Origin: Eledone cirrhosa
Taxonomy: Eukaryota
Assembly (NCBI GenBank): GCA_964016885.1
Contig: OZ024742.1
Span: forward strand, 53,444,001 to 53,508,000
Length of the DNA: 64,000 nucleotides
Reading direction: 5' to 3'
The translations under genes and the position numbers were made by a program. The notes under the pieces are model-generated. The model saw only the letters and a list, made by a program, of their open reading frames with translations, was not told the DNA's origin and did not search any database. This document shows, in pieces, positions 1,411 to 59,395 of the stretch. Numbering within the stretch: the stretch's first letter is position 1; the number at the start of each line of letters is the position of its first letter.

Positions 1411-1855
1411 GCTTCTATATCTCTTTCTCACTTCCCATCTCTCACTTTCTATCTTTCTCTGGAAGAAATCTGCTGTTTTCAGGTCTGGAGAGGGATGGGC
1501 TCCACCAGACTTAAAATACTCTAGAAAAGCTGTATGCTAATACAGCGACTCCACCAGGAATTACGGGACATCTCTCTCTCTTCTCTTATACCAATCTACA
1601 TCTTGGCAACAACACACCTTTACTTAAACATTTCAACGCAGACTATTTATTTATTTCCACTACCACACCCCGCTTTGACCCTGCCCCCTTAACAGCAGCA
1701 TGTCATACACACTCACTGCTATTATTTCCCCCCATCCTCAGTGTTTATGTATACATACATATGTGTGTGTGTGTGTGTGTGTGTCTACATACATGTATAT
1801 ATATATATATATATATATATATATATATATATTCATTTTATTAAGGCTGAAAAGT

Positions 1856-1912
1856 GAGTCTTGTTACTCTGGAGTTTCGGCTGTTTATCACAGGGTCATC
1901 AGAAAAGAACTC
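1856..1912 (-). ncRNA. Minimal type I hammerhead ribozyme motif in a PLE-derived remnant
   Basis: Minus strand reads GAGTTCTTTT-CTGATGA-CCCTGT GATAA ACAGCC-GAAAC TC CA GA GTA-ACAAGACTC. Both core boxes are present, with stem II CTGT/ACAG, a short stem III, a GUA triplet and an imperfect stem I. Confidence 0.6.
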
Positions 1913-2589
1913 TGTGTATGAGCATATATATATATATATATAAGTGTGTGTGTGTGTGTGTGTGTGTGTGTAAAAGGTAAACAGATATAACAAAACGGCG
2001 CAGTACAGGGAAGTAATATATGTGTGTATTTGAGGATACACACACACACACACACACACACACACACACACGCACACACACACATTTCAGCACACATTTC
2101 TGTTATCTCCCTTGCCTTCTCCCCCATATTCTCAGAATGTGAAGGCATCAGTTCACCAGAATCTTTTGGCAGGTTTGTAATTGAGATTAGATACACCTAA
2201 ATATACACGTTGGCAAACGAACACAGGTACACATTCGTGCACACACATAGACATATACTGACAAACGTACATACATATATACGCAAACGCAATGACATGC
2301 ACAAACACACATATATATATATGTGTGTATGCATATATATATCATCACTCTCAATACCATCCCACTTAACCAAGTTTTTAAGTATAACATTTAGTGATTT
2401 ATTTTATTTTATTTCCCCACCCGAATACTTCTAACACCTATGCCATAGTAAAGCACCCTAACCAGTCATACCGCCCCTCTCATATTATGTTCACATATTT
2501 CTCCCTGTCTCTCTGCCGATGATTCATTCAGTAATGTCTATTTAAAGCACAGGTGTCGAACTATATTCCACCAACGAAATAGGGCACAC

Positions 2590-2980
2590 ATGAACCACAG
2601 CCCTCCTTAATCACAGCACACCTTAGTCAAGGCACGCCTGAATCAGAGCACACCTCAGTCACGGCACACTCGAACCACGGCACCCCCGAACCACGGCACC
2701 CCTGAACCACGACACACATGAACCATAGTCCACCTAAATCACAGCATACCTCAGTCATGGCACTCCTCAGTCACGGCAACCCTGAACCACAGTGCTTCTC
2801 AGTCATGGCCCATCTGAATCACGGTACACCTGAACCACGCCCCTCCCCCAAGAACCACGGCACACCTTAACCACGCCACACCTCAGTCATGGCACAAATG
2901 AACCACTGTACTCCTCAGTAGTCACTGCATCCCTCAGTCACGGCACACAACAGTTATAGCACACCTGCACCACGGCAAAA
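2590..2980. repeat. Degenerate ~17-20-bp minisatellite (CACCTGAACCACGGCA / CACCTCAGTCACGGCA)
   Basis: About 20 diverged tandem units; one more unit resumes at ~3465, after the MITE. Confidence 0.8.
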
Positions 2981-3014
2981 TTCAGTTATAGCACCCCTAA
3001 AACTAGACATACGT

Positions 3015-3464
3015 CAGTAGCGTAGCTAGAGGGGAGCTGCCCACCCCGGGTGGCACTATTGGGTCTGCTGTAGGATATAAGCGTTCTTTTAATGCTGCAA
3101 CATAATATTATTATTCTACACAGAGGGTGGTGGATTGGCAGTATAGGTAGAGAGTCGGACACCATGCTTTGAAGCATAGACTTACGTCCCTTTAAGATCT
3201 TAGTTCAAATCCCGCCGAGGTTAACTTTGCCTTTCATCCTTACGGGGTCGATAAAATAAACTACCAGTAATATACTGGTTATTTGCTGGCCTTGTGACCA
3301 AAATAGAAACAATTATTATTCTACACAGAGTAGTATATATATATATATAACTTTAAGAATTATACATATGTATATATTAAAAGCAATATGTATTTTTTGT
3401 TGGGGCCCGGGGTTGACAAACTGAAGGGTTGCCGCAGGCGGCACACACTCTAGCTACGTCACTG
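3015..3464. mobile_element. hAT-like MITE with a nested SINE A (3125-3320)
   Basis: TIRs CAGTAGCGTAGCTAGAG / CTCTAGCTACGTCACTG. No clear TSD, so the superfamily is inferred from TIR style only. Confidence 0.6.
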
Positions 3465-3866
3465 GTCACAGCACACCTCAGTGTGTCTAAATATTTTCTG
3501 TGCTTTTATGTTTGTATGCGTGTATAAAGTGTGTAAATGTATGTGTGTATGCATGTGTGTATGTGTATGTGTGTTTATGTTTGTATGCGTGTGTAAAGTG
3601 TGTATATGTATGTTTGTATATGCATGTGTATATGTATGAGTGTTTATGTTTGTATGCGTGTGTAATGTGTGTATATGTATGTATGTATGTATGTATGTAT
3701 GTATGTATGTGTGTGAATATGTATGTGTATATTCATGTGTGTCTATGTATGTGTATATATGTATGTGCATGTAAGTGTATGTGCGTATATGTATGCGTAT
3801 ATCTCATTCTATTTTCCTTAACGTTTATCATCGGGCCAGATAACATTTCCATTAAATCATTTAACC

Positions 3867-4127
3867 GGAGGAGGAGGAGGAGGAGGAGGAGGAGGAGGAG
3901 GAGGAGGAAGGGAAATAAATTGTGTTACCATCACATATTTTAGATATCTTGTCTACATATGTACAACAGGCGGGATTTCGTCATCGTAATCATCATCCCC
4001 ATCATCATCATCATCATCATCATCATCATCATCATCATCATCATTAACATCATCAATTATCGTCGCATTCTTCTTCTTCTTCTTCTTCTTCTTCTTCTTC
4101 TTCTTCTTCTTCTTCTTCTTCTTCTTC
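3867..4127. repeat. (GGA)n, (ATC)n and (TTC)n microsatellites
   Basis: Direct reading. Confidence 0.95.
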
Positions 4128-56950: not shown

Positions 56951-57232
56951 GAAAATTTGGACAATTTAATTGTAGTGATTAGTTTAGCTCTTTGCACTCT
57001 AAAATGGTCAGAAAACTTCGATATGCAATAATTTCACTCATTTGACATCCCTTAATCTCCATGTACATAAATTGTACCGCATTTTCAAATAGATGTGTGT
57101 TTTGGTAGTTTGAGGAGAAAATATATATATAAAAAAAAGTTATGGTCTGTGCCCTTTCCTAAGGAGTTAATATATCCAGCTTCTTCGCATTTGGTAAGAA
57201 ACAAACTGATATTATACCCAATTTATTTATTT
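56948..57232 (+). mobile_element. Unclassified repeat family (also 50505-50800 and, inverted, ~48300-48400)
   Basis: AAATTTGGACAATTTAATTGTAGTGATTAGTTTAGCTCTTTGCACTCT...TATTATACCCAATTTATT is shared. Confidence 0.65.
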
Positions 57233-57394
57233 CTCTCTCTCTTTATCCCCCCCCCCTCTCTCTCTCTATATATATATATATATTTATGGTGGCTGCAAAC
57301 TCTGCTAAGAGTATTGCAATCGCTTGTGAGATTACAGAAAATGGTTCACCTTTAGGCTACGGCCAGCCACACAAACCTGTAACAGATCCTGAAC

Positions 57395-57792
57395 AAGCAA
57401 TGCCTGTGCTTTGAATGTTTTTTAAGTGGTGAAAGGCCTTGCACTCGACCAATCCCACTCTCTGAGCATCGAAAAGACTACTCGAAAATGAGAACTGATC
57501 AACATCATCAGAGTTTCCCTCCCTTAGAAAGGTGTTGTGACAACAACTGGGAGGTAGGGGTGGGGGTCGCTTTCACTACCAGGTAAAAATTAAAGTGCTA
57601 TTTGGATGGCCGCTGACTCTGCTGAGTTTCTCCGCCCTTCGCCAAGTCTTGTATTTTATCCAGGAGAGTGTCCAAATATCACCCTCCTCACCAAGCAAGC
57701 TTGGTGGGGTTGCCGGTTTAGTGGCCGACGACCCGACCATGAGAAAGGTTGTACTGGGTTATATGTTACCAGAAGCACTCGAAAGTGACCTG
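57395..57792 (-). mobile_element. Second copy of the 46350-46806 family
   Basis: Colinear similarity; both copies end at a CA-type microsatellite. Confidence 0.55.
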
Positions 57793-57964
57793 ACGCGCGC
57801 GCGCGCACACACACACACACACACACACACACACACACACACACACACACACACACACACTAAATATTCTCTTTTACTATTTTACCTGTTCCAGCCATCC
57901 GGCTGATGCCATGCTGGAATACCTCCCTTATATATATATATATATATATATATATATATATATA

Positions 57965-58146
57965 TATTCATTCATTTATTATGGCTATTGGTGAGCTTTG
58001 TTACTCTAAAGTTTTACCTGCGCACTCACAGGATCACCAGTCTTGTCTGATGAACAAGTTTAATATAGAAATGGCTTCTGCAAGACTAGAACTGTTTCAT
58101 TCGAAGTTCTAGTCCTTTAGATGTCATTTCTATATTAAACTTGTTG
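57965..58146. mobile_element. Family P2 left arm up to CTGATGA, followed by an unrelated ~90-bp hairpin
   Basis: Matches 50839-50924, then ACAAGTTTAATATAGAAATG...GACTAGAACT/AGTTCTAGTC...CATTTCTATATTAAACTTGT. Confidence 0.65.
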
Positions 58147-58237
58147 TATACACTCTACTAATGTATTGAGTACCTTACTTACTGTGCCTATCCCCGATTG
58201 ACACACACAAACACACAGACACACACATATATATATA

Positions 58238-59395
58238 AGAGTAGAGGATCGACCACGACCTCGAACGGTTTCGGCCTGTTACCTCCTCTAGCATTCGTCA
58301 GGAAAGTGTCTCAAATATAAGGGAAATGATAGAAGGGAAAGTAGATGAAGGGAATCTACTTATTGGTCACGCACATAGACACATGTATCGCCCACTCACA
58401 CACGCACGGACATGGGAAGATGGAGGAAAAAGAAGAAAAGGAAGAAAGAAATGATAAAATGAGGAAGGAAGGATGAAAGAAGTGGAGAAGAGAAAGGGAA
58501 AAAAAGAGATAAACAGGAGAAAAAGAAAAGTCGGGAAGACAAAAGGTAATGTCAGGTACGTGTGTAGATTAGGATCATAATGGATAATTTCGGGGTTAAA
58601 GGTCTGATAGCTTCTAAGAGTTGACAGAGAGGACAAGGAATGTAGGATAGTTGAAGGTGGAGGGAACTCCTTCGAACCTCACACACATACAAACGCGCAT
58701 GCGCAAACCAGGATTTAAAATAAAAAATAAAAAATCTAAAAATTTAATCTAAAATATGTCCTTTTATCTAAGATAGACCAAAGATGTTACATATCTGTAA
58801 GAGATAGGTGGGAACAATTGAGTACTTACGTATGCATAAAATTAGGGAGAGGGGACGGGGGGTTCCAATATTGAGGGGGGGGGGGGGGGGGGGGGGGGGG
58901 CTGTGGAGGATGGGGGGGGGGCGTAAGAGTACAAGGGTAGGAGAGATTGGGAAGTTCGTTTATTTCATGTCGGGCAAACTCAGGTGCTGGGAGGTCGGTT
59001 GTCGAGGTTGAGGTGGTGTAGTCCATTATGCTTCGGGGTGGCATGTAGGTTTGAAGCAGAGGCACTATTTCTTGCCCATTTGCTGTGATGTTACACTTGT
59101 ATACTACATTTGTAGTGAGGTATTGGGTGCCAAGAGGGCACTCATTTTGGTTGCGATAGTTACAGTTTGGCCCTAAGGGTACGTTGTTGGGTCCGTTTAG
59201 TCTGTGAATGTTGAGCTTAGACCTGTTTTTTGCGGTGATGCACTGAACCATATTGGGCGTAGAGGATTATGACAGTTTCACTGTGCTTTTATTTATTTTG
59301 TGGTAACGGTGTTGTCGCAGAAAACGCTGCTGGATCAATGCGAAGAACAATCTGGCAAGTGGTGTCGCTAGATCTGCATTGTAGAGCGGGGTTAT
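58238..59395 (-). mobile_element. Penelope-like element 3' part: linker/Cys motif, start of GIY-YIG, CT-rich tail and hammerhead
   Basis: NP.YN...ARLFFALIQQRF..HRYHKINKSTVKLS.SSTPNM...CNYRNQNECPLG..LTTNVVYKCNIT (59395-59065). CTGACGA...GAAAC CG TTCG AG GTC at 58301-58257. Confidence 0.8.

What the first reader, a model, noticed from the sequence alone, without database searches (positions are those of the whole stretch)
1832..58301. Dispersed population of tiny hammerhead-bearing, (TA)n-embedded elements from several unrelated families
Seen: at least ten hammerhead cores or half-cores in 64 kb, at 1856-1912(-), 20078-20089, 21139-21152(-), 27981-28021, 29365-29412, 35547-35627, 41800-41898, 50910-50964, 53394-53424 and 58257-58301(-), plus family P1. 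They differ in sequence but keep CTGANGA / GAAAC / GTH, often with a tiny or palindromic stem III (TCGA, CGTACG, CCGG), and most abut (TA)n. Established: PLE pseudo-LTRs carry minimal hammerheads that can act as dimers. Inference: a large ribozyme-processed, microsatellite-targeting non-autonomous retroelement system that could also help explain the density of (TA)n tracts.
Basis: partly seen in the sequence, partly recalled or inferred. Interest (0 to 1): 0.75.

Follow-up and report, generated by a model that had tools for sequence, protein, structure and literature searches.

The report
Penelope retroelement ends carrying hammerheads
Nine of the ten listed hammerhead-shaped RNA motifs are real but mostly broken; they are the leftover ends of Penelope-like jumping genes, a known kind that lands in TA repeats, plus likely non-coding hitchhikers, and whether any of them cuts RNA is untested.

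Summary
Nine of the ten sites belong to repeat families whose majority sequence has a type I hammerhead layout. Site 20078 is the end of a palindromic MITE, not a hammerhead. Genome-wide the motif is far above chance (15 strict hits in 800 kb against 0.17 in shuffles, about 56,000 copies) and points towards (TA)n. In the window, eight of the nine copies are truncated or mutated. Families B, C, D (Hydra-type) and H (Neptune-type) are 3' ends of coding Penelope-like elements; P1 is linked in one locus. E, F, G and A' have no coding parent found and are likely non-autonomous. Family A likely moves as the opposite strand, with its hammerhead a passenger. Minimal hammerheads in Penelope ends, and a (TA)n-inserting Hydra element in octopus, are published. 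The scan also found this before, in this genome and others. 'Ribozyme-processed' has no support here: 0 of 106 incidental copies start at the predicted cut. Only about 3% of (TA)n tract ends carry a recognisable half-core above chance. The unusual residue is family H, a young family with a fixed U3-A8 plus C13 core, untested for cleavage.

The parts
1832..1912 (-). Family A' copy: type I hammerhead (core 1865-1902) plus short 3' end, (TA)n on both sides; core intact, one mismatch each in stems I and II; no coding parent found
15132..15328 (.). P1 fold-back (long and short arm) between (TA)n; lacks the 5' core half. Further P1 copies at 34309-34510, 35317-35472, and diverged ones at 23928-24086, 37975-38041, 53614-53668
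20035..20200 (.). Palindromic MITE-like element; the 20078 motif lies in its inverted end and is not a hammerhead
21060..21172 (-). Family D 3' end, 5'-truncated inside stem II (no CUGANGA), (TA)n on both sides; Hydra-type coding parent in L260
27858..28037 (+). Family F, decayed copy of an about 290-nt unit with a canonical-like type I hammerhead; cut triplet mutated to ATC
28554..28623 (-). Inverted, 5'-truncated 3' end of family B (keeps GTA, lacks the 5' core half), ends at (TA)n
28622..28942 (+). Penelope-like reverse-transcriptase thumb remnant, 95% identical to family B coding DNA in L259
28960..29508 (+). Family B 3' region with hammerhead 29365-29412 (GTA mutated to GCA in this copy) and tail ending at (TA)n
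35543..35765 (+). Family G 3' end; core with one extra base (CTGAAAGA, 15 of 15 copies); this copy has lost most of stem I; no coding parent found
41800..42050 (+). Family E 3' part, truncated through the 5' core half; an about 870-nt non-coding unit found elsewhere in partial tandems
50514..51280 (.). Family A composite unit: upstream piece, (TA)n, decayed inverted arm 50840-50905, hammerhead arm 50910-50964 (GTA mutated to ATA), non-coding body. Other pieces at 48045-48702, 56953-57230, 57967-58053
53104..53545 (.). Family H fold-back (arms 53104-53292 and 53357-53545): two family-intact variant hammerheads (U3-A8, C13) at 53394(+) and 53255(-); 3' ends of a young Neptune-type element
58232..58330 (-). 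Family C hammerhead end, old and decayed, followed by short (TA)n
59084..59534 (-). Hydra-type coding remnant (linker and endonuclease start) upstream of the family C hammerhead on the same strand

Best explanation
The sites are truncated or folded-back 3' ends of several Penelope-like retroelement families that end at TA repeats, four shown attached to coding elements and the rest likely non-coding passengers, each with a hammerhead-shaped motif predicted to cut only as a dimer and not tested for cutting. Mechanism: the element's GIY-YIG endonuclease nicks a (TA)n tract and its reverse transcriptase copies the RNA from the 3' end (inferred from fixed 3' ends and staggered 5' ends; established model for these elements). 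Copying usually stops early or folds back, so short stubs and hairpins holding the hammerhead or half of it vastly outnumber full elements (pattern shown). B, C and D derive from Hydra-type and H from a Neptune-type element (shown by coding DNA upstream on the same strand). E and F are likely non-autonomous tandem units of the retrozyme kind; G and A' have no parent found. Family A likely moves as the opposite strand, its hammerhead a passenger. In intact elements the hammerhead most likely trims tandem precursor RNA as a dimer (inferred from the literature and palindromic stems III). The single copies in this window would not cut.
For: Strict descriptor: 15 hits in 800 kb vs mean 0.17 in 12 shuffles; without stem I, 41 vs 3.6; 15 of those 41 have a stem I of 4 bp or more although not selected for it. 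32 of 41 have (TA)4 within 200 nt downstream vs 20% of random positions. Stem I pairs with its own family's partner strand and not with others: sum 40 vs permuted mean 10.8, 0 of 100,000 permutations (D was under-parsed there as 1 bp and is 5 bp in 15 of 18 copies). Staggered 5' ends with a shared 3' end in B, D, E, G, H. Coding parents: L255 holds an inverted end, RT, endonuclease and the H hammerhead end; L258/L259 for B; L260 for D; the window and L261 for C. Open 713-codon Hydra-type frames with RWR, DKT and CxCX5C occur in many copies (a further family). Published: minimal hammerheads in Penelope ends, mostly single truncated copies, opposite-strand pairs and a U3-A8 variant (PMC4209133); Hydra clade with hammerheads and (TA)n insertion, including Hydra-1_Obim (PMC8557442).
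Against: No coding parent found for A, A', E, F or G, and P1 is linked in one locus only, to an endonuclease 86% like that of family D. Same-strand upstream coding hits were rare within 1.5 kb: 2 of 20 B, 2 of 9 C, 2 of 20 D. The genome is so rich in such fragments that a single link can be a neighbour. Six of ten families (A, A', B, E, F, G) close stem II with a mismatch instead of G10.1-C11.1. No copy starts at the predicted cut (0 of 106 incidental copies of B, D, E, G, H, P1). Pfam and the PDB did not recognise the 713-residue frame, so clade names rest on motifs and a by-eye match to the published alignment; I built no tree.
Confidence: 0.85

Rival explanations
1. One reading: one large, ribozyme-processed, non-autonomous system of tiny elements that replicate on their own through cut or circular RNAs and build up the (TA)n landscape.
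For: A', E, F and G have no coding parent found. E and F occur as head-to-tail units of about 870 and 290 nt. All 25 A' loci start at or just before stem I or fold back there.
Against: B, C, D and H sit on coding elements. 45 of 70 incidental P1 copies start inside stem II and lack the 5' core half, and none of 106 copies starts at the cut. Excess tract ends with a half-core are about 3% (128 of 2907 vs 23-32 of about 3000). The nine window-derived references touch 38 of 1486 tracts (the A' reference was empty in that call).
Confidence: 0.1
2. The hammerheads are inherited passengers in most families: the fold persists for a structural or historical reason, and cleavage is not needed for copying.
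For: Family A spread with GAGAC in 14 of 30 copies, 0 of 30 canonical cores on its likely sense arm, and a predicted hairpin that buries the motif. H spread with C13 in 20 of 20 and G with an extra core base in 15 of 15. In vitro activity of such motifs is reported as low, and their function is called unclear.
Against: Core and stems are kept across families whose stem sequences are unrelated, which implies selection on the fold. This rival is compatible with the identity given in the best explanation and differs only on function.
Confidence: 0.3
3. The motifs are chance matches or ends of DNA-transposon MITEs in AT-rich, microsatellite-rich DNA.
For: True for 20078. The loose three-part motif is not significant within the window (16 of 200 shuffles), and no strict hit exists there. 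Family A contains MITE-like pieces (by eye).
Against: Family majority sequences restore full hammerhead layouts; 15 vs 0.17 strict hits in the sample; staggered 5' ends and coding parents.
Confidence: 0.03

Closest known systems
Minimal type I hammerheads (min-HHR) in pseudo-LTRs of metazoan Penelope-like elements (Cervera and De la Pena 2014, PMC4209133; parts 1-2 of 4 read)
   Same: Short stem I, long stem II, tiny palindromic stem III, many sequence families per genome, thousands of single truncated copies, opposite-strand pairs, U3-A8 variant.
   Different: Higher number here (about 56,000 strict, against 2,000-9,000 reported per genome). Six families close stem II with a mismatch rather than G10.1-C11.1. 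H adds C13 and G an extra core base.
Hydra clade of Penelope-like elements, including Hydra-1_Obim (Craig et al. 2021, PMC8557442; section 11, passages and supplement passages read)
   Same: C-terminal endonuclease with CxCX5C linker, hammerhead at the 3' end, (TA)n insertion, inverted 5'-truncated copies, tail at one end.
   Different: The paper lists one octopus Hydra family; this genome has several, with unrelated hammerheads. No tree was built here.
Neptune-type Penelope-like elements (features as described in PMC8557442)
   Same: Family H: DKG motif, YLDD, CX4CxxC linker before a C-terminal GIY-YIG endonuclease, inverted upstream end.
   Different: The H hammerhead has U3-A8, C13 and a 3-bp stem I. 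Neptune and Nematis were not separated.
Animal non-LTR retrozymes (PMC7229834, passages; bioRxiv 10.64898/2026.07.22.740005, parts 1-2 of 5)
   Same: F (about 290 nt) and E (about 870 nt) are non-coding head-to-tail units with a type I hammerhead; the preprint argues that such units derive from Penelope ends.
   Different: Only partial dimers were seen, no long arrays; copies are decayed; circles not tested.
Natural hammerhead core variants (Perreault et al. 2011, PMC3088659; section 8 and passages read)
   Same: U3-A8 (H, P1), an insertion after A6 with low activity (matches one reading of G), and a U10.1-U11.1 mismatch (A, F) are described.
   Different: C at position 13 is not named in the section read; figure 5 and the supplement were not seen.

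Membership tests
Penelope min-HHR | Type I order with conserved core and GTH | tested here: met
   Majority sequences of A, A', B-G and P1; H has a variant core; 20078 fails
Penelope min-HHR | Short stem I flanking the core | tested here: met
   5-7 bp in A', B, D, E, F, G, P1; 3 in H; 2 in C; permutation 0 of 100,000
Penelope min-HHR | Palindromic stem III allowing a dimer | tested here: met
   Perfect self-duplex in E, F, G, H; partial in A, A', B, C, P1; D reads CGTACG or CGTCG
Penelope min-HHR | Conserved G10.1-C11.1 pair | tested here: not met
   G-C in D, H, P1; bulge then G-T in C; mismatch in A, A', B, E, F, G. Described as typical in PMC4209133, with U-U known as a natural variant
Penelope min-HHR | Lies in the terminal repeat of a Penelope-type coding element | tested here: inconclusive
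   Met for B, C, D, H; one locus for P1; no parent for A, A', E, F, G
Penelope min-HHR | Self-cleavage as a dimer | not testable with these tools
   Needs an in vitro assay
Hydra clade (families B, C, D) | CxCX5C linker before a C-terminal endonuclease | tested here: met
   B (L040) and D (L066) frames; decayed in the window C remnant
Hydra clade (families B, C, D) | RWK-like and DKT motifs in the RT N-terminus | not tested
   Seen only in the further 713-residue family; N-termini of B, C, D not recovered
Hydra clade (families B, C, D) | Insertion into (TA)n | tested here: met
   3' ends at (TA)n in alignments; weak for the old family C
Hydra clade (families B, C, D) | Placement in the clade by phylogeny | not tested
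   By-eye match to the printed alignment only
Neptune-type element (family H) | DKG, RT catalytic motif, CX2-5CxxC linker, C-terminal GIY-YIG endonuclease | tested here: met
   L255-L257; frames carry stops and shifts
Non-LTR retrozyme (families E, F) | Non-coding head-to-tail units with a type I hammerhead | tested here: inconclusive
   Partial dimers in 2 of 15 F loci and in L263, L264, L267 for E; no multimers seen
Non-LTR retrozyme (families E, F) | Expressed as cut and circular RNA | not testable with these tools
   No RNA holder listed

The most novel reading that the evidence does not exclude
Family H, a young Neptune-type family of roughly 19,000 copies, has fixed a C at the normally invariant core position 13 together with U3-A8, and this variant still self-cleaves as a dimer: a natural hammerhead core I did not find described. 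With G (extra core base), the stem II-mismatch families and A (antisense passenger), the genome then offers a natural series to test whether Penelope elements need their hammerhead.
Probability: 0.25. Interest if true: 0.55.

Novelty: new member of a known kind. Interest (0 to 1): 0.25.

Why it matters
As a system it is known: Penelope-type ends with minimal hammerheads in TA repeats. It adds scale (tens of thousands of intact motifs that Rfam does not call) and families that spread widely with altered or buried cores. What these hammerheads do in Penelope elements is still open, so H, G and A are usable test cases. It also warns that single window copies are poor assay substrates.

Tried and rejected
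Rfam: no hammerhead among the 150 listed rows for the window and no match at gathering score in 10 loci. Pfam and PDB searches did not recognise the Penelope-type frames. Family A as a simple palindromic MITE: rejected, the homology runs on for 1.5-2 kb. Family A as part of the Tc1-like transposon at 55986-56950: rejected, an A piece replaces that element's end. 20078 as a hammerhead or tRNA-derived end: rejected as a hammerhead; the tRNA idea was not tested. Pile-up of copy starts at the cut: not seen. In that of 72 A' hits came from an unrelated repeat in the reference flank, so I dropped all 72 A' rows; fold-backs count twice and some loci overlap the window. The boundary walk bridges microsatellites, so only its offset pattern is used, not its TA flags. 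In one search the A' reference was empty and the H reference ended short of the TA tract, so its H 3' count is too low. Literature searches: (0 papers hold 'hammerhead ribozyme' and 'A13C'). The Terminon paper (PMC5850863) is not held; it, the supplement of PMC4209133 and figure 5 of PMC3088659 were not seen and may list a C13 variant. Look-ups of earlier findings by the H and A sequences returned nothing.
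Full report
Setting. The window is G000:C3:53444001-53508000 of a 3.0-Gb animal genome. It is probably a cephalopod; that is my inference from the repeats and was not established. It holds 81 (TA)6+ tracts, a 24-bp satellite at about 4.4-12.3 kb and many dispersed repeats.

Observation. All ten strings are present. As they stand they are weak: a structure descriptor with stems I and II of 4 bp or more finds none in the window, and without stem I only the two arms of the 53104-53545 palindrome. 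Loose counts give 18 paired half-cores vs 9.5 in shuffles (1 of 200) and 5 three-part motifs vs 2.1 (16 of 200). So I searched the genome with each site and read the family majority. First-look candidate counts were A 2260, A' 1002, B 2809, C 9, D 1704, E 3651, F 428, G 2380, H 1058 and 221 for the 20078 region. These are not copy numbers, and I aligned only the best 9-30 loci of each. Nine families show a type I layout, and so does P1 in its less truncated copies. 20078 does not. Window copies carry lesions: A GTA to ATA, B GTA to GCA, F GTC to ATC, D and E truncated through the 5' core half, G missing most of stem I, A' with stem mismatches, C decayed. Only the two H arms equal their family.

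More than chance. In 80 stretches of 10 kb, picked at round coordinates on large contigs and so not strictly random, the strict descriptor finds 15 hits vs 0.17 in 12 tract-preserving dinucleotide shuffles, and the relaxed one 41 vs 3.6. Scaled up, that is about 56,000 strict motifs (Poisson range 31,000-93,000, my arithmetic). The descriptor was shaped after seeing the window families, but 15 of 41 hits have a stem I that the relaxed form did not ask for. 32 of 41 have (TA)4 within 200 nt downstream and 19 of 41 upstream, vs 20% of random positions. Across nine families stem I pairs with its own partner only: 0 of 100,000 permutations reach the observed sum.

What they are. B, D, E, G and H have a shared 3' end at (TA)n and staggered 5' ends, often with an inverted copy next to them. 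PMC8557442 describes this layout for Penelope-like elements. H: locus L255 holds an inverted end, RT (YLDD), a zinc-finger linker, the endonuclease and the hammerhead end; the DKG motif is seen in L257. This is Neptune-type by motifs. B: an endonuclease lies 1.2 kb upstream in L258, and the window's RT piece at 28622-28942 is 95% identical to B coding DNA in L259. D: coding DNA upstream in L260. C: coding remnants upstream in the window and in L261. The B and D linkers are CxCX5C, the Hydra mark. A further Hydra-type family has open 713-codon frames in many copies, so recently competent enzymes exist; its 3' end is none of the window families. The supplement of PMC8557442 lists Hydra-1_Obim with (TA)n preference and a hammerhead. 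P1 is linked once (L181). No coding parent was found for G (3 extended copies), E (3 extended copies; an about 870-nt unit in partial tandems), F (15 loci; about 290-nt unit, partial dimers in 2) or A' (25 loci).

Family A. This is a 1.5-2 kb non-coding composite with a fixed fold-back of an A'-like end. Left ends cluster at three TA-bounded positions while right ends are staggered from 12 to over 1500 nt, the mirror image of B, D, E, G and H (a noisy method). I infer that it moves as the minus strand. On that strand the core is never canonical (0 of 30) and has no stem I. On the plus strand 14 of 30 copies read GAGAC, and the two arms are predicted to form a -92 kcal/mol hairpin against -20.6 for the hammerhead arm alone. 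Its hammerhead is therefore likely a passenger.

How it works. Shown: target preference, polarity, truncation, fold-backs, and coding parents for four families. Inferred: nicking and priming at (TA)n by the element's enzymes, trans-mobilisation of the non-coding families, and dimer cleavage through palindromic stems III (self-duplexes; low dimer activity reported in PMC4209133). Against a visible role of cleavage: 0 of 106 incidental copies of B, D, E, G, H and P1 start within 3 nt of the cut, while 45 of 70 P1 copies start 31-46 nt upstream, inside stem II. Tandem or circular templates could erase such a signal, so this does not refute cleavage.

(TA)n density. The window has fewer tracts than the sample (81 vs 119 per 64 kb). 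128 of 2907 tract ends have a paired half-core pointing in, vs 23-32 of about 3000 in four shuffles; in the window 18 of 162 vs 3.2. This is a lower bound, since decayed and variant ends are missed. Insertions can split tracts, but the data fit target use better than a main cause.

Core variants. H reads U3-A8 with C13 in 20 of 20 aligned copies (19 of 20 with the full 5' half) and in 5 of 10 similar motifs in the sample; the other 5 keep A13. That scales to about 19,000 copies (wide range). U3-A8, an insertion after A6 and a U-U closing pair are described natural variants (PMC3088659 section 8). C13 is not named there, and one full-text search found nothing; unseen supplements and papers may list it.

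Earlier notes of this scan reached the same general reading in this genome and others. I had written my reading before that look-up, and such notes are not independent support. Verdict: real, abundant and a known kind; interest 0.25.

Noticed in passing
window 31498-31525(-) and 36742-36769(-): A repeat family ending at (TA)n in which GAAA comes before CTGATGA (reversed order); 7 such motifs in the window vs 2.1 in shuffles (1 of 200), 61 vs 35 in the sample. It fits the scrambled hammerheads noted earlier by this scan; structure not tested here.
   Followed up: partly
   Followed up: partly
window 14641-14910: 135-bp perfect-arm palindrome starting at (TA)n, with a relative in L302 that has one long and one short end; likely another Penelope-type fold-back.
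   Followed up: partly
window P1 copies; L193, L042, L136 and others: P1 fold-backs turn at a hotspot inside stem II with differing junction letters, and the short arm stops at the same point before the tail.
   Followed up: partly
L231 and L244, upstream of the 713-codon frame: The end repeat of this abundant Hydra-type family holds a hammerhead-like stretch whose 5' core half reads CAGAAGA, by eye.
   Followed up: no
window 55986-56950: Tc1-like transposase remnant (Pfam HTH_SB and HTH_Tnp_Tc3_2) whose 3' end is replaced by a family A piece.
   Followed up: partly
window about 4400-12330: 24-bp satellite of over 300 copies with a 2.2-kb higher-order duplication visible in the frames.
   Followed up: no
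window 3123-3320, 18281-18466, 43255-43441, 52803-52998 and others: Very abundant SINE-like family of about 190 bp, at least 15 copies in the window.
   Followed up: no
window 24974-25345: Pif1 helicase 2B-domain fragment, likely a Helitron remnant.
   Followed up: no
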